From: Candidatus Azophilus sp.
Lineage (GTDB): Bacteria; Pseudomonadota; Gammaproteobacteria; Pseudomonadales; Azotimanducaceae
NCBI GenBank assembly: GCA_965247035.1
Contig: CBDFGJ010000003.1
Location: 1,252,840 to 1,316,839, forward strand
DNA: 64,000 nt
Direction of reading: 5' to 3'
A program made the position numbers and the translations under genes. The number at the start of each line of letters is the position of its first letter. The stretch's first letter is position 1. This document shows, one piece after another, positions 24,215-38,835 of the stretch. Under the pieces are notes generated by a model. It had not been told where the DNA came from and did not search any database. It saw nothing but the letters and a program-made list of their open reading frames with translations.

Positions 24215-24215
24215 T

Positions 24216-24368
24216 CAGTTCGGTCTTGCCCGCAGCGCAAGAGCGCACGCCGCCTCCTTGGCGTTCTTGTTGTTGAATGAGCGCGCCTTCTCCGCAACCC
24301 GCGCGTCGAACCCCGGCAACAGCCAGGGTTGGGAGTTCCTGATCATCGACGATCCGGCCATCAAGTAA
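24216..24368 (+). pseudogene. Possible nitroreductase-family gene remnant (N-terminal motif only, no start codon, premature stop)
   Basis: The plus-frame translation ...AFSATRASNPGNSQGWEFLIIDDPAIK* resembles the conserved nitroreductase N-terminal motif (compare STNSQPWHFIV in NfsB-type enzymes). No ATG was found, and the frame ends at TAA 24366-24368. Confidence 0.3.
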
Positions 24369-24536
24369 CCGGTCGGTGACAAGGTGCTTGCCGGCATGGC
24401 GCCGTTCGACCAGCTTGGCGGGGTCGGGCAGCGGGATTTGGTCTGAGCCTCCCAACAGGGCTGCGCCATCCCGCTGTCGCGCAAACAACAGGGTATGTGC
24501 CTGGAAAGGCGATAGTTGGATCATGCATCGGTACCC

Positions 24537-24625
24537 GGAGGGGTGGCTGAGCGGTCGAAAGCACTGGTCTTGAAAACCAGCGAGGTGACAAGCCTCCCAG
24601 GGTTCGAATCCCTGCCCCTCCACCA
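24537..24625 (+). tRNA. tRNA-Ser (anticodon UGA), CCA encoded
   Basis: Hand-folded cloverleaf. The acceptor stem is GGAGGGG/CCCCTCC. The anticodon stem CTGGT/ACCAG carries loop CTTGAAA (anticodon TGA). A long variable arm (GAGGTGACAAGCCTC) fits a class II tRNA, and the T arm is CAGGG-TTCGAAT-CCCTG. Discriminator A is followed by CCA. Confidence 0.93.
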
Positions 24626-24907
24626 AAGCCGCGCTAAAGCGTTGGGTCTTTTGACCCAGCGGTTACTTATCCAACGCGGTCGGAAGGGCCAGTCAAACCC
24701 CGCTAGGGAGAGCTGGCGGTGACCGCGTGCTCGAATCATAGGTGCATGCTTTTTGCGGGCTGTGGATTATTTTCGTGCATTGTCATACCCCTACATTGCC
24801 GTGTTTTCTATTTGCGGCTTTTTTGCAGTAATCGGGGCTGCCGACTGAGCCGTGGCGCTAGGCGGCAAACAGTGACGCTTGTTCACAAGCGGCAAAACGG
24901 CGACACT

Positions 24908-25375
24908 ATGCACTTCTACAGGGCGGGAGCTAGATCGGTGGCAAAGCGTTTGGTGGTTAGTGGCGAAAGCGTCAATCTGCACACGCCGCTGTTTGATCGT
25001 TTTGAGTCCGGGCGTCCCGCTGATCTCGGCAGCTTGGCGCGGGATATCGCCGACATCCTTGGGGCGCGCCGCGCCCACCGGGGGGCGTTGCCTGGCGTAC
25101 TGAGTTGGGGGCTGCCCGATATGTCGGGGCTCACGCCCACGTCGGAGAAGGACCAAGAGACCATCGCCGCCATGGTTGAGAGGGTGATTGAACGCTTCGA
25201 GCCGCGCTTGGAGAACGTGCGCGTCATCCCAGTGCGCGACGCCGTGGACTTCACTTTCACGCTTGAGGCGGATCTTGTGCAGTCAAAGGATGATTCCATC
25301 ACGCTGCGCATACTGTCGCCACGTCGGGGGGGAGCCCTCGGCGCGGACATTGAGGTCATCGGCGGTCGAAGATGA
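24908..25375 (+). CDS. tssE: Type VI secretion baseplate protein TssE (gp25/GPW-like); alternative GTG start at 24938
   Basis: The C-terminal part of track ORF 24719..25375 reads PLFDRFESG...LARDIADILGARR...LPGVLSWGLPDMSGL....QETIAAMVERVIERFEPRLENVRVIPV...FTFTLEADLV, which follows the TssE/gp25 pattern. GTG 24938 has GGGAG 8 nt upstream; ATG 24908 has no Shine-Dalgarno sequence. Confidence 0.8.
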   Translation: MHFYRAGARSVAKRLVVSGESVNLHTPLFDRFESGRPADLGSLARDIADILGARRAHRGALPGVLSWGLPDMSGLTPTSEKDQETIAAMVERVIERFEPRLENVRVIPVRDAVDFTFTLEADLVQSKDDSITLRILSPRRGGALGADIEVIGGRR

Positions 25376-25448
25376 CGTGCGCAGGCAGTGGCATCAGGCT
25401 CATTCGCACACTTTGCTTGTGCGTCGGAACAATGGTTGAGGTGGCGCC

Positions 25449-27071
25449 GTGATCGACGACAAGCTGCTGCGGGCCTACATCGTGGAACTCGAAGCCCTGC
25501 GGGATCATGGCCGGGATTTCGCGATTGCCTTTCCGGACATCGCTTCGCGGCTCGACATCAGCGCGCAGCGATCGCGTGATCCCCATGTGGAGCGGGTGGT
25601 CGAAAGCGCTGCGATGCTGGCCGCTCGCCTGCGGCAAATGATCGAAGAGGATGCCGCCGGGCTGCCGTTGGCGGCGTTGTCGGTGCTTGCCCCTACGCTT
25701 GTCGAGCCGGTGCCTTCAATAACGATGGCACAGCTTTTAGGCGGCTCCGAAGTGCGCACAATTCCCCGCGGCACACGTTTCGACTGCTCCGTGGCTAGCG
25801 GCACCCAAGTCTGCTTCAGCACGACGATGCCGATCACTGTCGCCCCGCTCGCCACGGTGACGCGCCGCTTGGACCCTATGGCCGGCTACGCGGACGGCAT
25901 CGCCGTGCGCCTGAACGGCCGCCCGCCGAATAATTTGCTGCTGTCGGTTGGCGATAGCCGACAGTCGGGGGCGATGCTCATTGATGCCTTCGACGAGCAT
26001 CTCGCCGCAATTGAGGTCCTGACCCCAGATGGCGAGCGGTCGAGCCGGCCGGCAGCGGGCCTGCGCATACACGGCTTCTCCAACGAGGACGCCGCCTTGC
26101 CGGTGCGCCCCGGCGCTCATCAAGCGTACCGCAACCTGACGGAGTTCCTCGTTTTCCCTGACAAGTATCGACTCATTTCGGTTGGCAACCTGCCGCCGGA
26201 AGCGGGAACCGAAATCCGTTTTCTGTTCAATGCGCCGTTGCCGTTGGCAGGGGCCGTGCCGCCGAACTTCTTTTTTGTCAATAGGGTGCCCGTGGTGAAT
26301 TTGTGGCGCACCGGTGGAACGCCGATCGATATCAACGGGCGGCAGCTTGAATACCCGGTTCGGGTGGACGCCCTGCGCTACCGAACGGTGGAGTGCCACT
26401 CAGTGGAGACCGTTGATCTGTATGCGTCCGACCAATCGCGCCCACAACGGCTCGATCCCGTGGTGGCCTTCGGCAACTTGCGCGGCACCATGGTGCGCTG
26501 GGGCGTCCGTCGCAAGGTGTCCAAGCGCGGTGGCGAGGTGCTGTTGTATTTCCAAGGTCTTGACTACCGCACCTTGGGGCGGCAGCGACTGCTCGCCACC
26601 ACCAACGTCCTCGCCAGCAATCGCGACCTCGCGCAGCACGTTCGCGCTGGTACGCCGATGTTGCCGGTTGAGGGGATGGGCAGTTGGCGTGGCAGCCTAG
26701 TCAGAGCGCCAACGGCTTTCCAACCGGCGCTGGTCAGTTCCGCGGCCATGGCGGCGATGGTTGGATTCCTGCAAAGTGCCATAGTCAGCCTGCCGCCGGA
26801 AGGCCGGACGGCGGTGATTAAGGAGTTTCTTAAACGCTTTCCGGGTGGCGAGAATGCTGGCTGGATTGATGGTCTCGGGACGCCCACCCATCGGTCGGTG
26901 GCGGTGCTGCGCGGTGGGCAACCGCAGTCCGGGATCGCCATCTCTATCCCCTTCGACACCTACCGCCACCCCACCACCAGTCGCGCCGTAGTCCGGCGTG
27001 TACTCGGCCAGATATTCGACAGCCAGCGCGGCCTCAACCGCGTAGAGGAGGTTTCGGTTGATGTTGGCTGA
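25449..27071 (+). CDS. tssF: Type VI secretion baseplate protein TssF (ImpG/VasA family)
   Basis: The N-terminus KLLRAYIVELEALRDHGRDFAIAFPDIASRLDISAQRSRDPHVERVVESAAMLAARLRQMIEED matches the conserved TssF N-terminal signature (LL.YY..EL.YLR..G.EFA...P..A..L......DP.VERLLEGFAFL.AR). At 540 aa it is somewhat shorter than the usual ~580-620 aa. GTG start with GAGGTG upstream. Confidence 0.85.
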   Translation: MIDDKLLRAYIVELEALRDHGRDFAIAFPDIASRLDISAQRSRDPHVERVVESAAMLAARLRQMIEEDAAGLPLAALSVLAPTLVEPVPSITMAQLLGGSEVRTIPRGTRFDCSVASGTQVCFSTTMPITVAPLATVTRRLDPMAGYADGIAVRLNGRPPNNLLLSVGDSRQSGAMLIDAFDEHLAAIEVLTPDGERSSRPAAGLRIHGFSNEDAALPVRPGAHQAYRNLTEFLVFPDKYRLISVGNLPPEAGTEIRFLFNAPLPLAGAVPPNFFFVNRVPVVNLWRTGGTPIDINGRQLEYPVRVDALRYRTVECHSVETVDLYASDQSRPQRLDPVVAFGNLRGTMVRWGVRRKVSKRGGEVLLYFQGLDYRTLGRQRLLATTNVLASNRDLAQHVRAGTPMLPVEGMGSWRGSLVRAPTAFQPALVSSAAMAAMVGFLQSAIVSLPPEGRTAVIKEFLKRFPGGENAGWIDGLGTPTHRSVAVLRGGQPQSGIAISIPFDTYRHPTTSRAVVRRVLGQIFDSQRGLNRVEEVSVDVG

Positions 27072-28113
27072 TCAGGAACCCCGTGCGGCGACGTTCACCG
27101 ATTTGCCGACAGACGTCAAAACGACGCCTGACGCGGTTGCCGCCGTGCAGCCTGAGGTTGAAGAAAACCGCTTGCAGCATCCGTTGGCCCAAGATCTGCT
27201 GTTCAACCCTCGGCGCTGGCGGATTTGGCCCGCGGTCGCCATCCTGCGCTGGCTGCTGCGCGACGCCCGCTTGACATTGCGCGGCCTGATCTACCGTTCG
27301 AGGCCATCCTTGGGCTTTGCCGGCTCGGAAGTTGACGACATCGCCCTGCAGCCCGAGAGCATCGATCTGGTCCTGACGGCGCCTGGACTGGCGGCCGCCG
27401 GGTCGCCGTTGCCGACGGTCGACATCGCACGGATCGTCGCCGATTCGATTCCGCCCGGCCGAGGTGCCTTGGCGGCTTGGCTTGATGGCCCGGGCGACCG
27501 CTTCATGCAAGCTGTCGAAGCCGCCAAGGCACGCAACAATGCGGCCTTCGCGCTGGCCACCGGCGGGCGCATTGAGGCGCTGGCCACGGTAGCGGAGCTC
27601 GCCGGTCGGTCGGCGCCGCTGGCGGCGCGGCAGGGCGGCCTTCTGTCCACCACGTTCGATACCGAACCAGAAGGGGCAATTGGACTGGGGGCGCTGTTTG
27701 TCGGCACAATTTCCGCGGTGGGCTTGGAGACGCTGGTGGTGGGGTTCACTGAACTTCCGGCCCGCGTTGAGGAGTTCACGGGCGGCCGGGCGGAGGTCGC
27801 ATCTTCAGCGCGGCTGGGTTCTCCGGCCGGGCGGATGCTAGGTGCCGCCTGCGAATTACCGGCGGCGGGAGTTTCCGTGTTCGTGCAGGGCGGCAGCGTG
27901 CCGACGGCCCCGTCTTTGGCCCAAGGGGCTGGCCGCCGACGCTCCCTGCTGAGCCTTTGCAGGGCCTATGTCGGCACGCCTTGTCCAGAGGTGAGCATGT
28001 ACCTCGAACTCAATGCGGACAACGCGCCCCCGGCGAAGCTGGGGGTGGCCGCGCTCGGCGGCTTGGCGATCTTGGGGCAGGCGGAGGCACCGGTATGCCT
28101 GCCCCTGCATTAG
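27061..28113 (+). CDS. tssG: Type VI secretion baseplate protein TssG (ImpH/VasB family), divergent
   Basis: ~350 aa, overlapping the tssF stop by 11 nt (ATG 27061, GAGGAG 10 nt upstream). It contains RRWRIWPAVAILRWLL, LVLTAPGLAAAGSPLPTVDIARIV and ALAAWLDGPGDRFMQAVEAAKARNNAAF. These correspond to the TssG FFQAvRLLE, GL.G..GPLP and FlD.F.HR...L.yrAW blocks. Position immediately after tssF fits. Confidence 0.7.
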   Translation: MLADQEPRAATFTDLPTDVKTTPDAVAAVQPEVEENRLQHPLAQDLLFNPRRWRIWPAVAILRWLLRDARLTLRGLIYRSRPSLGFAGSEVDDIALQPESIDLVLTAPGLAAAGSPLPTVDIARIVADSIPPGRGALAAWLDGPGDRFMQAVEAAKARNNAAFALATGGRIEALATVAELAGRSAPLAARQGGLLSTTFDTEPEGAIGLGALFVGTISAVGLETLVVGFTELPARVEEFTGGRAEVASSARLGSPAGRMLGAACELPAAGVSVFVQGGSVPTAPSLAQGAGRRRSLLSLCRAYVGTPCPEVSMYLELNADNAPPAKLGVAALGGLAILGQAEAPVCLPLH

Positions 28114-28148
28114 ACCCAACGAACCCAACGAACCAACGGAGCAATGTC

Positions 28149-29336
28149 ATGACTAACTCCATCTCCCACAGCCGCCGGCTCATCTCGCGGGCGTTTGTCG
28201 CCTGCGTCCTTCTGCGGGCCTGGCCGCGCAGGCACACGCCCAGGCCTGTCTGGCTTGGCTGTTTCGCCTGGCACCTTGTCGCCCGCGTTTGATCCTGACG
28301 TTATTGATTACAGCGTCCAGGTGGCTGGTGATGTGACATCAATCGAATTTACGCTAACTTCGGATACAGATATCACCGTGGATGGAGCAGGATTTACCAG
28401 TGGAGAGACCAAGTCATTCTCTTTTGGCGCTGACCTTAATACAAAAGATTTCGTCATTATTGTAGGCACTTTTTCCGGCACCCGAGGCCACTTCGTCACC
28501 CTGACCCGCGACACCGTAGATCTCCTCAACGGAGCCGGGTTTGAACACACCGGCGGTAAGAACAGGGCGATACGACCTATTTGAATCGTGGTGACAGCAT
28601 CACGGTATTCGTGCAGTCCGACGAATCGCTGCCTGCGAATTCCCTTGTGGATGTTGCCAGATTTACCTTTTCCGGCACCCCCTTCCCGGCGCAAAGTTTG
28701 CTGCCGGTGTCCGGCATCGCGAACCGATATTCGGCGACCCGTACAATCAGAAACAGTGACCACGGAGAGTCGCTAAGTTTAGTTGTTCGCGGTGTCAGGA
28801 ACGCTGATGGCAACCTGGTGACCGACCTTACTGTAGACCTCCAAACAAGGGTAACCATCGACACCCGCGCACCGGCGATTGAACTGGCAGGCAATTCAGC
28901 CGTGACCGTTGCCCATGGCGTCGAGTACTCCGATGATGGCGTGCGTGGGCTGGATACGGCGGCTGGCGAGCAACTGGAAACGGCTGTTGTCGGACCTGGC
29001 AGTGAGACCACAGTGAACACCCGCGTCGCCGGCGCCTACACCATCACCTACACCGCGACCGACCGCGCCGGCAATACCGACACGGAGACCCGCACCGTGA
29101 CCGTGTCCGACCCGCCAGCCGCGAAGCCGATTGCCGATGCGGGAGCCGATGTCACCCTGGCTACCAACGCGGAAATGACGCTGGACGGCTCCAGTAGCAA
29201 CAGTGTCGGTCAGACGATCAATTTCTATACCTGGACGCAGACCGTCGGCGATCAAGTCGACTTAGATGTCAACGCCTTGCGCCCGACCGCGACCTTCACC
29301 GCGCCGGTTGCGGCGGCGGCTTTGCCGCCGCTTTGA
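28149..29336 (+). pseudogene. Frameshifted, C-terminally truncated secreted adhesin fragment (signal peptide + cadherin-like beta-sandwich + Ig-like/DUF5011-like + partial PKD)
   Basis: The reading frame must change three times, near 28215, 28245 and 28575. The pieces are: MTNSISHSRRLISRAFVACVLL (frame 0); GLAAQAHAQA (frame 2); LSGLAVSPGTLSPAFDPDVIDYSVQVAGDVTSIEFTLT...FEHTGGKNRAIRP (frame 1, track ORF 28195..28584); and YLNRGDSITVFVQSDESL...TIDTRAPAIELAGNSAVTVAHGVEYSDDG...YTITYTATDRAGNTDTETRTVTV...PIADAGADVTLATNAEMTLDGSSS (frame 0, track ORF 28581..29336). The joined sequence is colinear with FTHTGGVEVGTTVFFNVGDTLTAFVNSDEAL... in the 2,909-aa protein. It ends inside the PKD domain. Confidence 0.7.
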
Positions 29337-29551
29337 GTCACACTAGGGCGTAACGACATTAAAAGCCTGGCAAAGCCGGACTTGGGCGGGCAACGATAAA
29401 TCGGGCGGGATTGACCACAGAGCCCCTCCCTGATGGTATTTTTTGCCAATTCTCTGTATTTTATGGGATTCAATACCCTGAACGCAGGTTCCATGCTGGT
29501 GTCAGTGCGGGTTGCCCAAACCAACTTCATTTACATTATGAGGCAAACATC

Positions 29552-29677
29552 GTGAACAAAATAACCACCGACATACACAAAACAATCACCAACATTGGTT
29601 TTTGCCTCGGTGCTACTGGCAGCGATGAGCGTCGCCCCCCCCCAGCCAGCCACGCAGCAGAGAGGCAAGTGCTATGA
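29552..29677 (+). other. Upstream leader ORF: degenerate, frameshifted copy of the downstream gene's start and signal peptide; its stop overlaps the main ATG (ctATGAat)
   Basis: gtgaacaaaataacc...aaaacaatcaccaacattggtttttgcctcggtgctactggcagcgatgagcgtcgcc aligns with the real 5' end atgaataaaacaatcacccaattcgttttcgccgcggcgttgctggtggcgatgctggcgtcaacc. Its stop TGA (29675-29677) overlaps ATG 29674-29676. It is in the same frame as track ORF 29411..29677. Confidence 0.6.
29635..29643. repeat. Homopolymeric C9 tract 31 nt upstream of the autotransporter start codon, inside the leader ORF
   Basis: Counted directly: gtcg CCCCCCCCC agcc. Confidence 0.95.
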
Positions 29678-32600
29678 ATAAAACAATCACCCAATTCGTT
29701 TTCGCCGCGGCGTTGCTGGTGGCGATGCTGGCGTCAACCGGCATCGCCCATGCTCAATCGGTAACTTACGCAGATGGCCAGACGGCAATCCGGGCAGACT
29801 CTTTTAGTATTCGCACTTCTGGAACCCAGACATCGGTAAACTTTTTCCCCCTCAAGACAGGAACATACACGGTTGTGGCGGGCGGACAGACCAAAAATGT
29901 AACGGTTACGGCAGATGACGCGGGTGACGAAGCAAGTATCGTATTTACTTTGGGGGATGCTGTTGTTGGTGATGCCGTCTTGTCATTTGGCAGCGTCGAG
30001 GTGGCAAGGCAGCGTATAGGGACACCCCCCCCGACCATCTCCCTGCGTGGTCCGTTCGCGGGTAACGCGCAGCGCATCACCAGAATTAGAGAGATAGATT
30101 TTGTTATAGCGGATGATTTTAATGGCGGCCGGCAGCCGGTCATAGACTACTGGGAATTATCCATCAATGGCGGTACTAATTACGATTTTACAAAGGTAAT
30201 CACGCCCTTCCGCCGCCCCAATATTGCCTTCACCCTGCCCGAAGGCAGATATGACGACGATCAGGTGCGAGTGCGCCAGAGCATAGATCAGGTTCTTTCC
30301 CCATTTGCCGGTCTTGACGCATTTATCTTTGATTCCACGCCGCCAGACATCACCCTGAAAGGTGACGCCAGGATTGTCCTGCAAGTGGGCGATACCTACG
30401 ACGACATGGGCGCCACCGTCACCGATAATCTGGATACCGACATCCAGTCCAGGTTGATGGTGGATAGCAGCGCAGTGGACACCAGCACCGCCGGCACCTA
30501 CACGGTTAGGTACAGCGCAACCGACCACACCGAGCACGGCGCGAATACTGGCCGGGCTACCCGCGAAGTCGTCGTGCAAGGTCAACTTGCCTTTGCCGTG
30601 GGCGGGGCACCCATGCTCACCAGCGATGGCGCGACGGTAGGGGGCGTAACCTTCGCCAAAGCCGGCGACATCCTGACCCTTGCCTTCACCACCAATCTGG
30701 CATTGGCAAGCACCCCAACCGTGACCATCTTCGTCGGTTCGTCCGGCCGGGGCGCCAGGGTGACCAAAGGCGCGGGCAATGCGTATAGCGCGACCTACAC
30801 GGTGGCCGCGGCGCATTTTCCGGACAGCGACGGCGTGGCGGCGCGGTATCACATTGACACAATGGTAGCCGCTGATGATGCCAGCAATACCTTTAACCCG
30901 CCTGGGGTTACCAGTGCGATTCTGGTTGATGTGGTCTCGCCGGTGGTGACCTTTCCCGAAATTGTCGGTCGTGGTGTGGTTGGCGATGAGCAAAGCCACA
31001 GCATCACCTTCTCCGAAGCGGTAACCGCGACGGTGGCTTCTTTCTCCAGTTCCACGGGCCTGATGGTGGATAGGGTGAGCGGTAGCGGTAGCGACACCCT
31101 TACCGTTGCCTACACCCCGAAAGCGGAAAGCTTCACCCTGGCCGTTAACCTCCGTGGCGTAACCGACCGGGCCGGCAACCGGGGGCCCAGCAGCAGAACG
31201 AGCCGGGGTGGCTTTGCGGACCCGGCGGTGCTTGGTCCGGCTCCGGGCATTGCCCTGGAGAGGGACACGGCTGCCGATGGTGCTGTTAATACGGACCGCC
31301 TCACCAGAAATAGAGGGATAGTCGTTACGCTGGCAAGCGATTTTGATACCAACAGGGACACCTGGGAATACTCCATCAATGGCGGTACCACCGATTACCT
31401 CCCCGGCACCGGCACCAGTTTCAGTTTATTACCCGCAGGCAGTGCCGCATATAGCGCCGACCAAGTGCGAGCGCGCCAGACCGTGGATGGCGTTGTTTCC
31501 GCATTTGCCGGTCTTGACGCATTTATCATTGATATTGATCCGCCGACGGCGAACCTCGGCAGCATTGCCGGTGCTGTGATTGACCGGGCCGGGCAGACGC
31601 ACGACATCACTTTCTCCGAGAATGTGGCCGGTTTGGCTGCGGGTGATTTCTCCGCTTCCACAGGTATTACGGTGACTGCTGTGAGCGGTAGCGATGGCGG
31701 TACTGATTACACCCTCACCTACACCGCGACTGCGGCAGCCTTCACTCTGCTCCTTAGCGCGGGTAGCGTGACCGACATCGCCGGCAATCTCGTTGTCGAG
31801 ACCAGCCTAGCCGGCACGGCTACGGCACCAGTCAACCAGAGGCCGACTGCCAATGCCGGGCCCGATCAACCTAATGCGGTTGTCAACCGGGAAGTAACCC
31901 TGAGCGGCTCCGGCGACGACCCCGATGGCGATAACAGTGCGCTGATTTATTTCTGGGGTCAGGCCAGCGGCCCGGATGTCGACTTGAGCAATGACGGCGT
32001 TGCTCGCCCGACCTTCACGCCTGCCAAGGCCGGGATTTATACCTTCGACTTGACCGTCATCGATGACGGCGGTGTCGCGCGGGGAACCACCGACAGGGTA
32101 ATCATCACCGTGAGTGCGGCGACTACCGACACCACCGCGCCGGTGATTACCTTCGACCGGTTTACACACACTGGTGGTGTAGAGGTTGGCACTACGGTCT
32201 TTTTTAATGTTGGTGACACCCTCACCGCGTTCGTGAACTCCGACGAAGCGCTTGCCGCCACGTCGCTTGAGGATGCTGCCTTTTTTGACTTTGACGGATC
32301 AGTACGCCCTGTGCAAGATCTGCTGCCGGTAGTCGGCGTCGCCAACCAATATAGTGCGACCTATACCATCAAACCTGAGGATAACGATGCAGGGCCACAA
32401 TTTAATGTTCGCGGTGTCACGGACACTGCCGACCCCGTGAACCCGGCACCTAATTTCAGACATCCTGTCGGAGCAGTGACTATCGACACCAGCGTGCCGG
32501 TCATCGCTCTGGAGGGCACTTCACCCGTTACCGTTGCCCACGGCGGCACTTACACCGAAGCGGAAGATGCGGGCATTAGTGGGGCGTCGCGGGGCGACAC

Positions 32601-35600
32601 TACGGCGATGACGACTACCGGACCCGACGCTATGGCAGTAAATGGCATAGCAGTGGACACCGACACCGCCGGCGACTACCTCATCACCTACATCGTGACC
32701 GACCGCGCCGGCAATGTCTCCAACACGCTGACCCGCACCGTGACCGTTGGCGCGGCACCCGTAGCCAACACCGCGCCGGTGGTCAGTGGCAATACAGCAC
32801 CGAATTATGCCGAGAACGCCGACGTGGCCACCCTGCCGGTGGCGACCTACGCCGCAACCGATGCCGAGAGCAACGCCTTCGCCTGGTCAGTCGCCGGCGC
32901 GGATGCGAATTTGTTTGCGATTGATGCGGATGGCGTATTGACTTTCAAGGCTTCGCCGAACTTTGAAGACGCGGCGGATGCTGACGGCGGCAACACATAC
33001 GAAATCACCATTATCGCCACCGAAACCGATGGCAACCCAAGCAACCTGCCAAGCGCACCGCTGATGGTTACGGTGACGGTTACCAATGTGGATGAAGCCG
33101 GCACGGTTATCATCAGCGGCACCGCCCAGGTTGGCGTGGAATTGACCGCCAGCGTGACCGACCCGGATGGCGCGGTTACTGATGCATTGTATCAATGGCG
33201 AAGCTCGGGAGCAGGCGGCGGCGTGGTCAGCGGTGACCCCAGAGTCAGCGCGACCTACCAGCCGGTGGCAGCCGATGTCGGCAGGACTCTGTCGGTCACC
33301 GTCGTCTATTCCGACCCGGTACCCGGTGGCAAGAACATCACCAGCGCGCCGACCGCCGCCGTGATTGCCGCGCCCGACACCACCGCGCCGATGGTTACCA
33401 TCCCCGCTCTGGGCGAATCCACGGCGGGTAATACGGCAAGCGTGAAAATTACCTTCGACGAGGCGGTTACCGGTTTGACGAGTGGCGATTTCACCGCTGA
33501 CAACGCCACGGTGAATAGCGTTAGCCCGGACAGCGGCTCCGACACCACCTACCTCGTCACCTATACCCCGGGCGCGGCGGGCGCGGTACGCCTGACTCTC
33601 ACCGCCGATAGCGTGTCCGACACCGCCAGTCCCACCCCGAACACCGGTCCCGCCAGCCCGGTAACCGCAACCGGCACTGCGGCGGCAGAGGCAACCGAAG
33701 ACACTACCAAACCACGCATCACTGCCACCATGACCATTGCCGGGCTCACCACCGCCGAGTTTGATGCGGACGAGTTCCGCATGGGCATTGCGAGATTGTT
33801 GAACGTGCGTTCCAGTGATGTGACCATCCTCAGTATCACCGCCGCTAGCGTGATCGTGGAGTATGAAGTAGTCACCACAGCGGACCAACTCGCTGCATTG
33901 GCAGCGACCTTGTCCGGCGCCAGCGCGTCGCAGTTACGCACCGCCAGCGGTCAAACTCTCCCCGGCACCGCGGTGGTGACCAACACCGAAGCGCAGACCC
34001 GCCAGCCGCCGGTTGCCCATGCCGGGTTTGATCAGCGGAATGTGGATACCGGCGCGACCGTGACCCTGGACGGCTCCAGAAGCACGGGCGATGATCTGAC
34101 TTACGAATGGACGGTGCCCACGGCATTAGGCGGGACTATCAACTTGAGCAGTACCACTGCCGTCCAGCCGACCTTCACCGCGCCGCCTCAAGCCAATGAC
34201 TTGATGTTCACCCTGACCGTTACCGATAATGATGGTGTTACCGCCACCGACACGGTAACCATCTTCGTAACCCCGGCGGACTCGTTTCGCATCGCCTTGG
34301 CTGATGACACCGGCATTGACGGCGATGGCATCACCAGCAATGGCGTGGTGAATGTGATGAATCTGCCCAGCGGAGGCACCTGGACATACTCCACCAATGG
34401 CGGCACCAGTTCCACCCCCGGCTCCGGCACCAGCTTCGATCTGGATGAAGGCGTGTATGACGCTGACGATGTGGTAGCCACTCTGGCTGGAGTTGGAGAG
34501 GGCGAGGACGAAACTGTCGAACTCGGTCCGGTTACCGTGGACAGCACCCCGCTGACGGTTGTGACCTTCGGCGCTATTGCCGCAGGCGTGATTGGCACGC
34601 CGCAGGAGCACGACATCATCTTCGCCGAAGCGGAGGACTTTGATCGCACCGACATCACCGCCGCAGGCGCCACGGTGAATCGGGTGACCAGCAACGATGG
34701 CATCACCCATACCATCAACTTCACCCCGAACGCGGCAGACTTCAGCCTGACCCTTGCCATGGACAGCGTGGTCGATGTCGCCGGCAACAGCGGTCCCGCG
34801 GCAGCGGCGGTCGCATCCGGCACCGCCACCGAAGCCCTTGCCTTTACCGTGGGAGAGGAACCCACGCTCACTAGCGATAACTCCATCAATAGTAATTACG
34901 CCAGAGACGGCGACACCCTGACCCTTGCCTTCACGCTCAATCAGGCAGTGGCAGCCCTCCCAGCCGTCACCATCGCCGGGGGGACTGCCACGGTGACAAA
35001 AGGCGCGGGCAATGATTACACTGCAACCTACACGGTGGTCGCGAATGATGTTACCGACAACACGTTGGTGGGTTATAACATTGACGCAATGGCCGCCGCC
35101 GATAATCTGGCAAATACGCTTGCCGCGACAGATGGCAGTACTGACATTCGAATTGATGTAACCGCGCCAACCGTGACCCTCGGCGCCATTACCGCAGGTG
35201 TGATTGACACCGAACAGACGCACGACATTACCTTCTCCGAGGCGGTAACCGGTTTGGCGGTGGGTGATTTCTCCGTTTCCAACAACATTGTGGCGTCCGG
35301 CGACCTCGTGGTGAATAGTGTGACCCCGGCCAGCGGCCCCAGCACCACCTACACCATCAGCATCACCCCGCGAGCGACAGCCTTCACCCTGGTCCTTGCC
35401 GCCGGCCAAGTAGCCGATGTCGCCGGCAACGCCGGTCCCGCGGTAGAGGCGAGCGCGAGCGGCACCGCCACCGAACCACCCAACCAGCCGCCGGTCGCCG
35501 ACGCCGGAGACAATCAGGATGTGAAGACCGGCGTGAGCGTGACCCTGAACGGCTCCCGCAGCAGCGACACCGATGGAACTATCGAGAGTTATGCTTGGGC

Positions 35601-38403
35601 GCATACCCAAACCGATGGCGCCACGCCTGCTCCGGCAGTTAATTTGACTGGTGCCAACCCCGCCAGCCCGACCTTCACCGCGCCGGCTACTGCCGGGACG
35701 CTAGTGTTCACCCTGACCGTCACCGATGATGATGGCGCCAGCCACACCGACACGGTAACCATCACCGTGTCTGAGTCAATGGACACAACCACGCCGGTGA
35801 TCACCCTTCTGGGGGACAGCCCCCTTGAGGTCGATCAGGGCGCCACCTACACCGACCCGGGCGCCACGGCGAGGGATGGCGGGGGTGGCCCTCTCACTGG
35901 CATCGTCGTTGGCGGCGACACGGTGGAGACCGACATGGTCGGCGAATACATCGTCACATATAATGTATTCGACAACGACGGCAATGCCGCCAGGACTGTT
36001 GCCCGCATCGTCCGCGTCGTCGAGCCGGACACGGTTCCCCCCGTGATCACCCTTCTGGGGGACAGCCCCCTTGAGGTCGATCAGGGCGCCACCTACACCG
36101 ACCCGGGCGCCACGGCGAGCGATGATCGGGATGACGATCTCAGCGCCGGCATCGTCGTTGGCGGCGACACGGTGGAGATCGACACTGTCGGCGAATACAC
36201 CGTCACCTATGATGTGTCCGACGCCGCCGGCAATGCCGCCGAGCAGGTCACCCGCATCGTCCGCGTCGTCCTGCTGGACACGGTTCCCCCCGTGATCACC
36301 CTTCTGGGGGACAGCCCCCTTGAGGTCGATCAGGGCGCCACCTACACCGACCCGGGGGCCACGGCGGGTGATGACCGGGATGGCGATCTCAGCAACCGCA
36401 TCGTCGTTGGCGGCGACACGGTGGAGACCGACACTGTCGGCGAATACACCGTCACCTATGATGTGTCCGACGCCGCCGGCAATGCCGCCGAGCAGGTCAC
36501 CCGCATTGTCCGCGTCGTCCTGCCGGACACGGTTGCCCCCGTGATCACCCTTCTGGGGGACAGCCCCCTTGAGGTCGATCAGGGCGCCACCTACACCGAC
36601 CCGGGGGCCACGGCGAGCGATGACCGGGATGGCGATCTCAGCGCCGGCATCGTCGTTGGCGGCGACACGGTGGAGACCGACACCGTCGGCGAATACGCCG
36701 TCACCTATGATGTGTCCGACGCCGCCGGCAATGCCGCCGAGCAGGCCACCCGCATCGTCCGCGTCGTCCTGCCGCCGGACACGGTTGCCCCCGTGATCAC
36801 CCTTCTGGGGGACAGCCCCCTTGAGGTCGGTCAGCGCGCCGCCTACACCGACCCGGGCGCCACGGCGAGCGATGACCGGGATGGCGACATCAGCGCCGGC
36901 ATCGTCGTTGGCGGCGATACGGTGGAGACCGACACCGCCGGCGAATACGCCGTCACCTATGATGTGTCCGACGCCGCCGGCAATGCCGCCGAGCAGGTCA
37001 CCCGCATCGTCCGCGTCGTCGTGGTGCGCGACCTTGATGCCTTGAACCGTGCGATTCTGCCCGAAGTGGCGCGCGACATAGCGGACCAGAACGTCAGCGC
37101 CATTGCGCGGCGCCTTGAGCAGGCGCGGCTGCCCTCGAGAGCCGCCGGCAGCGCCAGCCTCGGCGGCGCCTCCAGCCTGGCGGAGATCGCCAACTCCCAG
37201 GGACGCAGCATCGCCGATGACCGGTTTGACATGAAGCGGCTCCTGGGCAATTCCGATTTTGTCCTGCCGCTGAGCGCAGCCGGCGAAGGCGAAGCGGACG
37301 ACACCCAGCTGACCCTTTGGGGAGCGGGCGACTACCGCAACCTGAAAGGCGCCGATGGCGTGCGTTGGGACGGCGATCTGTTCAGCCTGCGAATGGGTCT
37401 GGATGTGCACCTGAATGAGAACACCATCGTTGGCGTATCCATCTCCGGGAGCCAAGCGAAGCTGGACTACACCAACCCCAGCATGGCCACCAGCGGCGAC
37501 TATGATCTGGATATGGCCAGTGTCCATCCTTATCTGGGCTGGGCTGCGGGAAGCATGGACTTCTGGGCGACCGCCGGCTACGGCAAGGGCGAACTGGAGA
37601 TCAGTGAAGACGGCGCGCAGACGGATATCCCCTCAAGCGACCTGAGCATGCAGACCTTGGCGCTGGGCGCTAACGGTGTGCTGATGGAAACCAACACCAC
37701 CACCCTGCTGCTCAAAACCGAGGCCTTGAGCACCGAACTGGAAGTGGATGCAAGTGAAGGGATAACGGCACTCACCCAGAAAGCCCACCGAGTGCGCATG
37801 ACCCTGGAAGCGATTCGCGGTTTCAGCCTGGATAGTGGCGCACGATTGGAAACCAGCCTGGAGGCCGGTTTGCGGTATGACGGCGGCGACGGCACGACCG
37901 GCACCGGCGCAGAGATTGGCGGCGGCCTGCGCTATGCGGGCCTTGGCGAGCGCCTGGTGATGGAAGGCAAGGCGCGGGCGCTGGTGGGCGGCAAGGGCGA
38001 TGCCGAGGAATGGGGGCTCAGCGGGCTGATCAAACTCAGCCCCTCGGCGAACGGGCGCGGCCTGTCCTTCAGCCTGGCGCCGGGTTATGGGGCGACCGCC
38101 AGCGGCGTGGAACGACTTTGGCAACAAGGGCTGGATGATGGCCTGGGGGCGCAGGGCGGTCAGGGCGGCAACAACTACAGCCCGAATCTGGACATCCGTT
38201 TGGATTACGGCATGGATGTTCCCGGGAGGCCTGGCCTCATGACGCCCTACACTGAATTCAGCCTTGGCGACAGGAACACCTATCGCCTGGGCCTGCAGTG
38301 GCGGCACAGCAAGTGGTTTGATCTGAAACTTGTCGGCGAGCGCGAAGAAAGCGGGACCACCGCTGAGCACCGCATCTACCTGAAGGGCGAGATAGCGTTC
38401 TAA
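29674..38403 (+). CDS. Giant autotransporter-type adhesin (2,909 aa): Sec signal peptide, multi-domain Ig-like/cadherin/PKD/DUF5011-like passenger, C-terminal outer-membrane beta-barrel
   Basis: The signal peptide is MNKTITQFVFAAALLVAMLASTGIAHA|QS. Ig-like modules carry the D.G..D.ITSNG and W.YS.NGG motifs. A cadherin repeat is present (YAENADVATLPVATYAATDAESNAFAWSVAGADANLFAIDADGVLTFKASPNFED...TVTNVDE). PKD-like units follow the pattern ANAGPDQ...TLSGSGDDPDGD. There are five tandem DUF5011-like repeats. The C-terminus (LTLWGAGDYRNL...YRLGLQWRHSKWFDLKLVGERE...IYLKGEIAF) has alternating-hydrophobic beta-strand patterns and a terminal aromatic residue, as in autotransporter barrels (PF03797-type). 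Confidence 0.9.
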   Translation: MNKTITQFVFAAALLVAMLASTGIAHAQSVTYADGQTAIRADSFSIRTSGTQTSVNFFPLKTGTYTVVAGGQTKNVTVTADDAGDEASIVFTLGDAVVGDAVLSFGSVEVARQRIGTPPPTISLRGPFAGNAQRITRIREIDFVIADDFNGGRQPVIDYWELSINGGTNYDFTKVITPFRRPNIAFTLPEGRYDDDQVRVRQSIDQVLSPFAGLDAFIFDSTPPDITLKGDARIVLQVGDTYDDMGATVTDNLDTDIQSRLMVDSSAVDTSTAGTYTVRYSATDHTEHGANTGRATREVVVQGQLAFAVGGAPMLTSDGATVGGVTFAKAGDILTLAFTTNLALASTPTVTIFVGSSGRGARVTKGAGNAYSATYTVAAAHFPDSDGVAARYHIDTMVAADDASNTFNPPGVTSAILVDVVSPVVTFPEIVGRGVVGDEQSHSITFSEAVTATVASFSSSTGLMVDRVSGSGSDTLTVAYTPKAESFTLAVNLRGVTDRAGNRGPSSRTSRGGFADPAVLGPAPGIALERDTAADGAVNTDRLTRNRGIVVTLASDFDTNRDTWEYSINGGTTDYLPGTGTSFSLLPAGSAAYSADQVRARQTVDGVVSAFAGLDAFIIDIDPPTANLGSIAGAVIDRAGQTHDITFSENVAGLAAGDFSASTGITVTAVSGSDGGTDYTLTYTATAAAFTLLLSAGSVTDIAGNLVVETSLAGTATAPVNQRPTANAGPDQPNAVVNREVTLSGSGDDPDGDNSALIYFWGQASGPDVDLSNDGVARPTFTPAKAGIYTFDLTVIDDGGVARGTTDRVIITVSAATTDTTAPVITFDRFTHTGGVEVGTTVFFNVGDTLTAFVNSDEALAATSLEDAAFFDFDGSVRPVQDLLPVVGVANQYSATYTIKPEDNDAGPQFNVRGVTDTADPVNPAPNFRHPVGAVTIDTSVPVIALEGTSPVTVAHGGTYTEAEDAGISGASRGDTTAMTTTGPDAMAVNGIAVDTDTAGDYLITYIVTDRAGNVSNTLTRTVTVGAAPVANTAPVVSGNTAPNYAENADVATLPVATYAATDAESNAFAWSVAGADANLFAIDADGVLTFKASPNFEDAADADGGNTYEITIIATETDGNPSNLPSAPLMVTVTVTNVDEAGTVIISGTAQVGVELTASVTDPDGAVTDALYQWRSSGAGGGVVSGDPRVSATYQPVAADVGRTLSVTVVYSDPVPGGKNITSAPTAAVIAAPDTTAPMVTIPALGESTAGNTASVKITFDEAVTGLTSGDFTADNATVNSVSPDSGSDTTYLVTYTPGAAGAVRLTLTADSVSDTASPTPNTGPASPVTATGTAAAEATEDTTKPRITATMTIAGLTTAEFDADEFRMGIARLLNVRSSDVTILSITAASVIVEYEVVTTADQLAALAATLSGASASQLRTASGQTLPGTAVVTNTEAQTRQPPVAHAGFDQRNVDTGATVTLDGSRSTGDDLTYEWTVPTALGGTINLSSTTAVQPTFTAPPQANDLMFTLTVTDNDGVTATDTVTIFVTPADSFRIALADDTGIDGDGITSNGVVNVMNLPSGGTWTYSTNGGTSSTPGSGTSFDLDEGVYDADDVVATLAGVGEGEDETVELGPVTVDSTPLTVVTFGAIAAGVIGTPQEHDIIFAEAEDFDRTDITAAGATVNRVTSNDGITHTINFTPNAADFSLTLAMDSVVDVAGNSGPAAAAVASGTATEALAFTVGEEPTLTSDNSINSNYARDGDTLTLAFTLNQAVAALPAVTIAGGTATVTKGAGNDYTATYTVVANDVTDNTLVGYNIDAMAAADNLANTLAATDGSTDIRIDVTAPTVTLGAITAGVIDTEQTHDITFSEAVTGLAVGDFSVSNNIVASGDLVVNSVTPASGPSTTYTISITPRATAFTLVLAAGQVADVAGNAGPAVEASASGTATEPPNQPPVADAGDNQDVKTGVSVTLNGSRSSDTDGTIESYAWAHTQTDGATPAPAVNLTGANPASPTFTAPATAGTLVFTLTVTDDDGASHTDTVTITVSESMDTTTPVITLLGDSPLEVDQGATYTDPGATARDGGGGPLTGIVVGGDTVETDMVGEYIVTYNVFDNDGNAARTVARIVRVVEPDTVPPVITLLGDSPLEVDQGATYTDPGATASDDRDDDLSAGIVVGGDTVEIDTVGEYTVTYDVSDAAGNAAEQVTRIVRVVLLDTVPPVITLLGDSPLEVDQGATYTDPGATAGDDRDGDLSNRIVVGGDTVETDTVGEYTVTYDVSDAAGNAAEQVTRIVRVVLPDTVAPVITLLGDSPLEVDQGATYTDPGATASDDRDGDLSAGIVVGGDTVETDTVGEYAVTYDVSDAAGNAAEQATRIVRVVLPPDTVAPVITLLGDSPLEVGQRAAYTDPGATASDDRDGDISAGIVVGGDTVETDTAGEYAVTYDVSDAAGNAAEQVTRIVRVVVVRDLDALNRAILPEVARDIADQNVSAIARRLEQARLPSRAAGSASLGGASSLAEIANSQGRSIADDRFDMKRLLGNSDFVLPLSAAGEGEADDTQLTLWGAGDYRNLKGADGVRWDGDLFSLRMGLDVHLNENTIVGVSISGSQAKLDYTNPSMATSGDYDLDMASVHPYLGWAAGSMDFWATAGYGKGELEISEDGAQTDIPSSDLSMQTLALGANGVLMETNTTTLLLKTEALSTELEVDASEGITALTQKAHRVRMTLEAIRGFSLDSGARLETSLEAGLRYDGGDGTTGTGAEIGGGLRYAGLGERLVMEGKARALVGGKGDAEEWGLSGLIKLSPSANGRGLSFSLAPGYGATASGVERLWQQGLDDGLGAQGGQGGNNYSPNLDIRLDYGMDVPGRPGLMTPYTEFSLGDRNTYRLGLQWRHSKWFDLKLVGEREESGTTAEHRIYLKGEIAF
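30025..30032. repeat. Homopolymeric C8 tract inside the autotransporter coding region (codons ~118-120, GTPPPT)
   Basis: Counted directly: gaca CCCCCCCC gacc. Confidence 0.95.
35782..37020 (+). repeat. Five in-frame tandem repeats (246/249/249/252-bp spacing) each encoding a DUF5011-like Ig domain
   Basis: Repeat starts (GAC of D-T-[TV]-x-P-V-I-T-L-L-G-D-S-P-L-E-V) are at 35782, 36028, 36277, 36526 and 36778. Copies 2-5 are near-identical at nucleotide level (PVITLLGDSPLEVDQGATYTDPGATASDDRDGDLSAGIVVGGDTVETDTVGEYTVTYDVSDAAGNAAEQVTRIVRVV). The periodic off-frame ORFs in the track at 35825, 36071, 36320, 36569 and 36821 mirror this. Confidence 0.95.
37309..38400 (+). other. Autotransporter translocator (beta-barrel) domain of the 2,909-aa protein, preceded by a helical linker (37021-37308)
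   Basis: It runs from LTLWGAGDYRNLKG to the terminal ...EHRIYLKGEIAF. Amphipathic strand patterns are repeated, Gly and aromatic residues are abundant, and the last residue is Phe. The linker is VVVRDLDALNRAILPEVARDIADQNVSAIARRLEQARL. Confidence 0.8.
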
Positions 38404-38644: not shown

Positions 38645-38727
38645 CGCCTTGCATGCAGGCTATCCGCCGCTAGATTTGGGCAGACCAACAATCAGCTTTG
38701 TTCGTGCATAGTAGGGACCAAAGCATC

Positions 38728-38835
38728 ATGAACAAGCTAATCACCCGATTCGCTTTTGCCTCCGCGTTACCGGTAGCAATAGGTATCCCCCCGCACACAC
38801 AGCGGGGGCCAGGCATCATGAAAAAAGTGCTATGA
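38728..38835 (+). other. Upstream 35-codon leader ORF resembling a decayed signal peptide; its stop overlaps the giant ORF start (ctATGAac)
   Basis: ATG 38728 opens MNKLITRFAFASALPVAIGIPPHTQRGPGIMKKVL*, with TGA at 38833-38835 overlapping ATG 38832-38834. The N-terminus MNKLITRFAFASAL parallels the real MNKIVTQFALVSAL. It contains a C6 tract, (CA)4 and a G5 tract. Confidence 0.6.

What the first reader, a model, noticed from the sequence alone, without database searches (positions are those of the whole stretch)
24908..28113. Orphan T6SS baseplate-wedge trio tssE-tssF-tssG with no other T6SS core gene in 64 kb, followed directly by adhesin genes
Seen: three consecutive genes carry TssE (gp25-like), TssF and TssG signatures, and tssF and tssG overlap. 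Upstream is tRNA-Ser and the ribosomal superoperon. Downstream, 35 nt after the tssG stop on the same strand with no terminator seen, a Sec-signal adhesin fragment begins, followed by two giant adhesin genes. Established: TssE, TssF and TssG form the wedge of the T6SS baseplate. They normally sit in clusters with tssB/C, hcp, vgrG, tssK, tssA, tssJLM and clpV. Inference, three possibilities: (a) a split T6SS whose other parts lie elsewhere; (b) a relic of a cluster truncated at the tRNA hotspot; (c) a wedge module recruited to a different, undescribed function. TssF is short (540 aa) and TssG is divergent, which fits either drift or specialisation.
Basis: partly seen in the sequence, partly recalled or inferred. 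Interest (0 to 1): 0.7.

Follow-up and report, generated by a model that had tools for sequence, protein, structure and literature searches.

The report
Detached T6SS baseplate operon tssEFG
Three intact genes for the baseplate wedge of a bacterial type VI secretion "nano-harpoon" sit apart from the rest of the machine, but at least one partner gene (clpV) lies elsewhere on the same contig, so this is an ordinary split secretion-system cluster, not a new system.

Summary
Window 24908-28113 encodes TssE, TssF and TssG (Pfam E = 3e-11, 2e-68 and 6e-20), and tssF and tssG overlap. No other T6SS gene lies in the 64 kb.

- The trio belongs to a large, well-conserved T6SS family found mostly in uncultured marine Gamma- and Alphaproteobacteria. 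In this family TssF is always about 540 aa.
- In the closest relatives (78-61% identity) tssEFG sits inside complete clusters: tssBC ... tssEFG-clpV-tssJKLM-tssA.
- The gene modules are heavily shuffled between genomes, but tssEFG always stays together.
- The three window genes are intact. dN/dS is about 0.19, and they evolve no faster than their closest relative.
- The best non-self hit of that relative's ClpV (82% identity) lies on a contig of exactly 1,509,427 bp, the same contig as the window's TssF. It is outside the window.
- A probable cognate TssC lies on a 407-kb contig.
- DNA homology to the closest relative ends exactly at the tssG stop codon. A frameshifted adhesin pseudogene follows, then a Sec/autotransporter adhesin that needs no T6SS.

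Verdict: an ordinary new member of a known kind, of low interest. Whether the genome holds the full T6SS gene set could not be verified.

The parts
24537..24625 (+). tRNA-Ser (anticodon TGA). It forms the upstream boundary of the trio. A weak hairpin follows at 24640-24661.
   Evidence: ARAGORN; terminator-like scan
24938..25375 (+). tssE (gp25-like baseplate wedge subunit). The likely start is GTG 24938 (145 aa).
   Evidence: PF04965 E = 3.1e-11. TIGR03357 59.8 bits, above its cut-off of 53.2. 59-62% identical to TssE of relatives that sit in full clusters; the N-termini align at 24938.
25449..27071 (+). tssF (baseplate wedge subunit), 540 aa, full length for its family.
   Evidence: PF05947 E = 2.2e-68. 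PDB 6GIY TssF E = 9e-25. 78/66/62/61% identical to TssF in the T6SS clusters of L003/L002/L001/L004. Keeps 68 of 69 invariant columns.
27061..28113 (+). tssG (baseplate wedge subunit), 350 aa. It overlaps tssF by 11 nt, which suggests translational coupling.
   Evidence: PF06996 E = 6e-20. 73-75% identical to TssG of L003 (349 aa). The same overlap is seen in relatives.
28149..29336 (+). Adhesin N-terminal fragment (signal peptide, cadherin-like, Ig-like and PKD domains) with at least 3 reading-frame switches and no anchor. It is a pseudogene and probably a rearrangement scar at the tssG/clpV breakpoint. It is not part of the T6SS.
   Evidence: Three-frame translation and tblastn against the paralogous adhesins; Pfam. 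DNA homology to L003 ends at the tssG stop codon.
29674..38403 (+). 2909-aa autotransporter (type Va) adhesin with Ig-like/PKD repeats. It is a neighbour, not a T6SS component.
   Evidence: Pfam: Bact_surface_Ig-like, PKD, Big_12. C-terminal PF03797 Autotransporter beta-domain scores 31.3 bits, above its cut-off of 26.
38715..64000 (+). Giant adhesin ORF with fn3, PKD and cadherin-like repeats. It is open for at least 8428 codons and runs off the window end.
   Evidence: Stop-free stretch 38715-63998; Pfam.

Best explanation
The three genes are a functional tssE-tssF-tssG operon. It encodes the wedge (TssE, two TssF, one TssG) that joins TssK to build the baseplate of a canonical contractile type VI secretion system.

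The operon belongs to a T6SS lineage that is common in uncultured marine, largely sponge-associated-looking MAGs. In this lineage the cluster is built from three mobile modules:
- tssBC with accessory genes;
- tssEFG;
- clpV-tssJKLM-tssA.

In this genome the tssEFG module has been separated from the others. The break lies exactly after the tssG stop codon. In the closest relative clpV follows there; here an adhesin gene fragment, now a pseudogene, and giant adhesin genes occupy that position. The other T6SS parts are encoded elsewhere: clpV on the same 1.5-Mb contig, and tssC probably on a 407-kb contig of the same assembly. The proteins assemble in trans.

Shown: gene identities, orthology to genes in complete clusters, intactness, purifying selection, the breakpoint position, and a cognate-type clpV on the same contig.

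Inferred: completeness of the remaining T6SS set, transcription from a promoter of its own, and activity.
For: Family membership.

Context in relatives:
- The closest TssF relatives all lie in complete T6SS clusters.
- Across 29 named genome loci the trio is always contiguous while its neighbours vary. Downstream can be clpV, tssBC, a small IS607-like gene or unrelated genes.
- In two relatives (OY762706.1, VYCF01000024.1) the trio has no T6SS neighbour within 10 kb. The rest of the system lies about 10-12 kb away, beyond an insert.

Other T6SS parts in this genome:
- ClpV P0242 is 775 aa. Its best NCBIfam model is TIGR03345 TssH (678 bits, against ClpB 471).
- It is 82% identical to the ClpV next to tssG in L003. 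That matches the TssF (78%) and TssG (75%) distances.
- It lies on a contig of 1,509,427 bp with sources ncbi+ena, exactly as for the window's TssF P0001. It is absent from the window.
- TssC P0129 lies on a 407,250-bp contig (ncbi+ena). Like all 3 proteins of the window's contig, it is 'not on record' in the contig index, whereas 6 of 6 proteins from other genomes were found.
- The identity ranking of P0129 to relatives' TssC mirrors the ranking of the window's TssF.

Selection:
- dN/dS is 0.19 for both tssF and tssG against L003, with dS 0.74-0.95. Pairs from complete clusters span 0.13-0.29 over tssF and tssG.
- The Tajima relative-rate test shows fewer unique changes in the window than in L003: 31 vs 44 for TssF and 12 vs 26 for TssG.
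- 68 of 69 invariant TssF columns are retained.
- GC3 of the trio (0.73-0.76) is like that of the host core genes.
Against: - Only ClpV is firmly placed in this genome. TssC is linked by circumstantial evidence only.
- No sigma-70 or sigma-54 promoter match was found upstream of tssE.
- A very recent loss of function would not yet show in dN/dS.
Confidence: 0.75

Rival explanations
1. Relic. The T6SS cluster was broken up, and tssEFG is a recently orphaned remnant that no longer contributes to a working machine and will decay.
For: - No other T6SS gene lies within 24.9 kb upstream or 35.9 kb downstream.
- The ORF directly after tssG is a multiply frameshifted pseudogene, so the junction is decaying DNA.
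- A complete T6SS gene set in the genome was not demonstrated.
Against: - All three ORFs are full length against relatives.
- dN/dS is 0.19 and the relative rate is not raised.
- 68 of 69 invariant residues are kept.
- An intact cognate-type ClpV lies on the same contig, and there is an intact candidate TssC.
Confidence: 0.15
2. Assembly artefact. The tssG-to-adhesin junction, or the tRNA-to-tssE junction, is a chimeric join in a metagenome-assembled contig, and the real genome has a contiguous cluster.
For: - Relatives are nearly all MAGs.
- Homology to L003 ends abruptly at the tssG stop codon.
- Repetitive adhesin genes are prone to misassembly.
Against: - Two independent misjoins, one on each side of the trio, would be needed.
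- GC3 of the trio matches the neighbouring core genes.
- The junction sequences are not repeats.
- The contig is 1.5 Mb and also carries the cognate ClpV.
- Relatives also show shuffled and interrupted clusters.
Confidence: 0.05
3. Repurposed wedge module. TssEFG have been recruited to a non-T6SS role that is functionally coupled to, and co-transcribed with, the downstream adhesins.
For: - The genes are on the same strand with a 35-nt gap and no terminator-like site after tssG.
- The trio scores below the NCBIfam equivalog cut-offs for TssF and TssG.
Against: - The sub-cut-off scores and the 540-aa length are shared by the whole family, whose members sit in canonical T6SS clusters.
- The immediately downstream ORF is a pseudogene.
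- The next adhesin has its own signal peptide and an autotransporter beta-domain, and a 337-nt AT-richer upstream region.
- None of the 29 related loci examined showed a tssEFG-adhesin linkage (spot checks).
- The window lineage shows no accelerated or altered evolution.
Confidence: 0.03

Closest known systems
T6SS baseplate wedge TssE-TssF2-TssG (with TssK), as solved for enteroaggregative E. coli (PDB 6GIY / 6GJ1 / 6N38)
   Same: - The same three families in the same gene order, tssE-tssF-tssG, with tssF and tssG overlapping.
- TssF matches the 6GIY chain at E = 9e-25.
- Orthologues in relatives are flanked by tssBC, clpV, tssK and tssLM.
   Different: - The lineage is divergent. TssF is about 540 aa against 587 aa in 6GIY.
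- TssF, TssG and ClpV all score below the NCBIfam equivalog cut-offs.
- TssG and TssE have no sequence-level PDB match.
- Here the operon is physically detached from the rest of the cluster.
Split or rearranged T6SS loci, for example the Acinetobacter T6SS locus split into separate transcriptional blocks (Repizo et al., as cited in PMC10210955)
   Same: Core tss genes of one system are distributed over separate blocks or loci and assemble in trans. In this family the modules tssBC, tssEFG and clpV-tssJKLMA are found in many orders and orientations.
   Different: The separation here is larger: more than 25 kb on one side and more than 36 kb on the other, with ribosomal genes and giant adhesin genes in between. 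In the related genomes examined the gaps are 0-12 kb.
gp25/gp6/gp7-type baseplate genes of phage tails and extracellular contractile injection systems (eCIS/PVC/Afp)
   Same: TssE has the gp25-like domain (PF04965) that all contractile injection systems share.
   Different: TssF and TssG hit the T6SS-specific families, not the phage/eCIS baseplate J-like families. Relatives carry the T6SS-specific genes tssJLM (DotU), tssA (ImpA_N) and clpV. No phage or eCIS genes are in the window.

Membership tests
T6SS TssE (gp25-like) | Match to PF04965 / TIGR03357 above the curated cut-offs | tested here: met
   PF04965 scores 43.4 bits (cut-off 27.2). TIGR03357 scores 59.8 bits (cut-off 53.2).
T6SS TssF | Full-length match to PF05947 above the gathering score | tested here: met
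   231.8 bits (cut-off 25), covering residues 3-537 of 540. PDB TssF 6GIY matches at E = 9e-25.
T6SS TssF | NCBIfam equivalog TIGR03359 cut-off | tested here: not met
   235.1 bits against a cut-off of 260.3. This is a property of the whole lineage, whose members sit in complete T6SS clusters, so it reflects divergence and not non-membership.
T6SS TssG | Match to PF06996 above the gathering score | tested here: met
   72.2 bits (cut-off 24.6), covering residues 77-337. The TIGR03347 equivalog cut-off is not reached (60.6 against 143.3).
T6SS baseplate wedge operon | Orthology to tssEFG genes embedded in clusters that hold tssB, tssC, clpV, tssK, tssL, tssM and tssA | tested here: met
   78-61% identity to the trios in L003, L002, L001 and L004. 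Full clusters are seen in L001, L002, L004, L006, L008, L025 and L027.
Complete T6SS in this genome | ClpV/TssH encoded in the same genome | tested here: met
   P0242 lies on a contig of 1,509,427 bp, the same as the window's TssF. It is 82% identical to the ClpV of L003, and its best model is TIGR03345. The link rests on contig length and sources.
Complete T6SS in this genome | Sheath TssB/TssC encoded in the same genome | tested here: inconclusive
   The candidate P0129 (TIGR03355, 616 bits) lies on a 407,250-bp contig. It is absent from the contig index, like the window's own proteins, and its similarity ranking is congruent with that of the window's TssF. The link is circumstantial.
Complete T6SS in this genome | TssK, TssJ, TssL, TssM, TssA, Hcp, VgrG and PAAR present | not testable with these tools
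Complete T6SS in this genome | Secretion activity (Hcp export, sheath contraction) | not testable with these tools
   This needs an experiment.

The most novel reading that the evidence does not exclude
The giant-adhesin island was inserted exactly between tssG and clpV and is kept there because adhesin-mediated contact and T6SS firing are co-regulated. On this reading, read-through from tssEFG would drive or tune adhesin expression in a host-associated symbiont. Alternatively, the trio is kept as a stand-alone wedge that serves more than one contractile system.
Probability: 0.05. Interest if true: 0.45.

Novelty: new member of a known kind. Interest (0 to 1): 0.15.

Why it matters
It matters little beyond annotation. 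The case shows that an 'orphan' tssEFG trio in a window-limited scan can be a detached module of a split T6SS and need not be a new system. It also documents that, in this marine and symbiont-associated T6SS lineage, tssEFG behaves as an indivisible, relocatable module. For genome annotation, cluster-based T6SS detectors (TXSScan/SecReT6 with a co-localisation rule) would probably miss or under-call this system.

Tried and rejected
1. Reading the source genome directly failed.
   - The look-up of encoding contigs has no record of the window's TssF, its RplQ or P0242.
   - A genome-contig scan with the window's TssF found nothing.
   - A metagenome scan with P0242 gave only relatives at 58-76% identity.
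2. tRNA-hotspot or island idea: no second copy of the tRNA-Ser 3' end exists in the window. A 13/15-nt near-repeat at the end of tssG is at chance level; it is one of 13 such short families, and it lies in conserved coding sequence.
3. Promoter search: no sigma-70-like site lies in 24200-29800. No convincing or conserved sigma-54 (TGGCAC-N5-TTGC) site lies upstream of tssE in the window or in 26 relatives.
4. The mirror-tree test linking TssC P0129 to the window is consistent (the ranking L002 > L001 > L004 > P0122 > the rest holds for both proteins) but not unique. P0129 ranks 9th of 122 by correlation.
5. Adhesins as T6SS cargo: rejected. The intact neighbour carries a signal peptide and an autotransporter beta-domain. 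The inserts next to tssG in relatives are not adhesins.
6. 'Short TssF means drift': rejected, because about 540 aa is the family norm.
Full report
**Observation**

The window holds three consecutive + strand ORFs at 24908-25375, 25449-27071 and 27058-28113. They match the three T6SS wedge families as follows:

| Protein | Pfam | NCBIfam |
|---|---|---|
| TssE | PF04965, E = 3.1e-11 | TIGR03357, 59.8 bits, above its cut-off of 53.2 |
| TssF | PF05947, E = 2.2e-68, residues 3-537 | TIGR03359, 235 bits, below the equivalog cut-off of 260 |
| TssG | PF06996, E = 6e-20 | TIGR03347, 60.6 bits, below the equivalog cut-off of 143 |

TssF also matches the solved E. coli TssF (6GIY) at E = 9e-25.

- tRNA-Ser(TGA) lies at 24537-24625.
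- secY, rpoA, rplQ and an aldo-keto reductase lie upstream.
- Downstream lie an adhesin fragment, a 2909-aa adhesin and a stop-free ORF of at least 8428 codons that runs off the window.
- tblastn with every T6SS protein taken from related clusters hits only E, F and G in the 64 kb. The set comprised TssB, C, ClpV, J-like, K, L, M, A, Hcp, a VgrG-sized protein, DUF2169/pentapeptide proteins and other accessory proteins.

There are two small refinements:
- tssE probably starts at GTG 24938. This gives 145 aa, has a GGGAG 8 nt upstream, and aligns with the relatives' N-termini.
- tssG probably starts at ATG 27061. This gives the same 11-nt overlap with tssF as in the closest relative.

**What family it belongs to**

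A search of the 5.8-billion-protein collection gave 240 relatives of the TssF. The 120 listed are 538-564 aa long and 51-78% identical. The 'short' TssF is therefore the norm of a conserved lineage and not a sign of drift.

The genomic contexts of the closest relatives all show complete T6SS clusters. These relatives are L003 (78%), L002 (66%), L001 (62%) and L004 (61%). The gene order is tssB-tssC-(488-aa protein)-(pentapeptide protein)-(small gene on the opposite strand)-tssE-tssF-tssG-clpV-(tssJ-like)-tssK-tssL-tssM-tssA.

A profile-guided scan of one genome per species found 29 loci. Nearly all are MAGs labelled Pseudomonadales, Gammaproteobacteria, Rhodobacterales/Paracoccaceae, Alphaproteobacteria or Acidobacteria. 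Many bin names look sponge-derived; that is my reading of the names and was not verified.

**Modularity**

Mapping the core genes onto these loci shows that tssE-F-G are always contiguous while their neighbours change:
- clpV follows tssG in L002, L003, L004, L008, L009, L014, L025 and L031.
- tssBC follows, about 400 bp beyond tssG, in L015. In L019 tssBC lies about 2 kb downstream of tssG.
- A small conserved gene follows in L001, L006, L023, L027 and L032.

In L010 and L013 no core gene lies within 10 kb. In both of those genomes the rest of the T6SS lies roughly 10-12 kb away, beyond an insert of uncharacterised genes. That rest comprises hcp, tssBC, tssA, tssM, tssL and the tssJ-like gene in both, with tssK and clpV also seen in L013's genome.

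Split and shuffled layouts are therefore a property of this lineage. A precedent for a T6SS locus split into separate transcriptional blocks is cited for Acinetobacter in PMC10210955.

**Is the rest of the system in this genome?**

The source genome cannot be read with the tools, but the protein collection reports the length of the contig that carries each protein.

The window's TssF (P0001) is on a single contig of 1,509,427 bp, with sources ncbi+ena. I queried with the ClpV that sits next to tssG in the closest relative, L003. The best non-self hit was P0242:
- It is 775 aa and 82% identical to the query.
- It is on one contig of 1,509,427 bp, with sources ncbi+ena.

Its best NCBIfam model is TssH/ClpV (TIGR03345, 678 bits, against ClpB 471). 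It is not encoded in the window. Its distance to L003 (82%) matches that of TssF (78%) and TssG (75%). It is therefore the cognate ClpV, encoded elsewhere on the same contig.

A search with a relative's TssC found no hit on that contig. It did find P0129 (86% identical; TIGR03355, 616 bits) on a 407,250-bp contig with sources ncbi+ena. Three circumstantial points link P0129 to the window's assembly:
- It is 'not on record' in the contig index, like all three proteins of the window's contig. All six proteins from other genomes were found there.
- Its similarity ranking to the TssC of paired genomes mirrors the ranking of the window's TssF.
- No TssF or ClpV from a 407-kb contig appears in the other two hit lists.

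I regard P0129 as the probable TssC of this genome, on another contig.

**State of the trio**

- All three proteins align end to end with their relatives.
- Against L003, dN/dS is 0.19 for both tssF and tssG, with dS 0.74-0.95. Pairs of complete-cluster genomes span 0.13-0.29 over tssF and tssG.
- Tajima relative-rate tests show no acceleration in the window lineage. Unique changes are 31 vs 44 for TssF and 12 vs 26 for TssG, with L002 as outgroup.
- The window's TssF keeps 68 of the 69 columns that are invariant in 36 relatives, which is an average score in leave-one-out.
- GC3 (0.73-0.76) resembles that of the neighbouring core genes.

Nothing indicates decay or specialisation.

**The junctions**

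DNA homology with L003 runs to the tssG stop codon and stops there. In L003, clpV follows after 249 nt. In the window, an ORF with a signal-peptide-like start begins 35 nt after the stop. It changes reading frame at least three times:
- the signal-peptide n-region is in one frame;
- the 'AGLAAQAHAQA' cleavage region is in a second frame;
- the cadherin-like domain is in a third frame;
- the Ig/PKD part returns to the first frame.

The ORF ends at 29336 without an anchor. It is a pseudogenised paralogue of the downstream adhesins, 51% identical to residues 7309-7498 of the giant ORF. I read it as a rearrangement scar.

The intact 2909-aa neighbour has its own signal peptide and a C-terminal autotransporter beta-domain (PF03797, 31.3 bits, above its cut-off of 26). 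It is a type V secretion substrate and is unrelated to T6SS export.

No terminator-like site follows tssG, and no sigma-70 or sigma-54 consensus was found upstream of tssE. Transcription signals remain unknown.

**Mechanism (best explanation, confidence about 0.75)**

A functional tssEFG operon produces the wedge proteins. These assemble with TssK, the membrane complex, the sheath and ClpV, which are encoded at one or more other loci. This is a split T6SS.

The separation arose after divergence from the L003 lineage, by a rearrangement or insertion whose breakpoint is the tssG-clpV intergenic region. It may still turn out that clpV lies just beyond the giant adhesin gene(s), in which case the locus would be an 'interrupted' cluster and not a 'scattered' one.

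Rival explanations:
- a recently orphaned relic (about 0.15);
- an assembly chimera (about 0.05);
- a repurposed wedge module coupled to the adhesins (about 0.03).

**Comparison and novelty**

The genes are members of the TssE, TssF and TssG families. They meet the Pfam thresholds and are orthologous to genes in canonical clusters. The lineage as a whole is divergent: its TssF, TssG and ClpV fall below the NCBIfam equivalog cut-offs, and its TssM-sized and TssJ-sized proteins have no Pfam or NCBIfam hits.

The arrangement is an unusually wide split of a known kind of system. I rate it a new member of a known kind, with interest of about 0.15.

Noticed in passing
window 28149-29336: Adhesin N-terminal fragment with a signal peptide and cadherin-like, Ig-like and PKD domains. 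It has at least 3 reading-frame switches and no anchor, so it is a pseudogene. It is 51% identical to residues 7309-7498 of the downstream giant ORF. The large neighbouring ORFs are intact, which argues that the frameshifts are real and not sequencing noise.
   Followed up: yes
window 38715-64000 (runs off the end) and 29674-38403: A stop-free ORF of at least 8428 codons with fn3, PKD, cadherin and cadherin-like repeats. It is preceded by a 2909-aa Ig/PKD-repeat autotransporter adhesin (PF03797 at the C-terminus). Together they form an adhesin island of more than 34 kb right after a ribosomal-protein region.
   Followed up: partly
L004 7022-7591 (-), L002 8768-9364 (-), L001 12909-13385 (+); homologues in at least 12 related loci: A small gene (158-198 aa) is conserved inside the T6SS clusters of this lineage, usually next to tssEFG. 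It resembles IS607-family TnpA (NF033518, E = 5.5e-12). The serine-recombinase motif reads YARAAPS / YARATPS / YARSAPG where I expect YARVSS from memory (the motif was not checked here), so the catalytic serine seems to be lost. It may be a domesticated DNA-binding regulator. It is absent from the window.
   Followed up: partly
L006-L034: The same T6SS lineage (TssF 43-62% identical) occurs in MAGs labelled Pseudomonadales, Rhodobacterales/Paracoccaceae, Alphaproteobacteria, Acidobacteria and Immundisolibacterales. This suggests horizontal spread within one habitat. Many bin names look sponge-derived.
   Followed up: no
L001, L002, L004, L035, L036 (relatives' clusters): The lineage is poorly covered by current models. 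The 1135-1151-aa TssM-position protein, the 160-183-aa TssJ-position protein and a conserved 487-493-aa protein after tssC have no Pfam or NCBIfam hits. ClpV, TssF and TssG score below the NCBIfam equivalog cut-offs. Pentapeptide-repeat and DUF2169 proteins are conserved cluster members. In L036 a protein with many ankyrin repeats lies next to hcp.
   Followed up: partly
window 24608-24622 and 28095-28109: The 3' end of tRNA-Ser (ATCCCTGCCCCTCCA) has a 13/15-nt near-repeat at the very end of tssG, so the two copies bracket the trio. I judged it to be chance. It is one of 13 similar short repeat families in 5.5 kb, and it lies in coding sequence that is conserved in L003.
   Followed up: yes
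L013 14698-20679 (+): In a relative, a 1993-aa ORF with no Pfam hit and a DUF3540 protein occupy the roughly 9-kb insert between tssG and clpV. They may be T6SS cargo or accessory genes.
   Followed up: no
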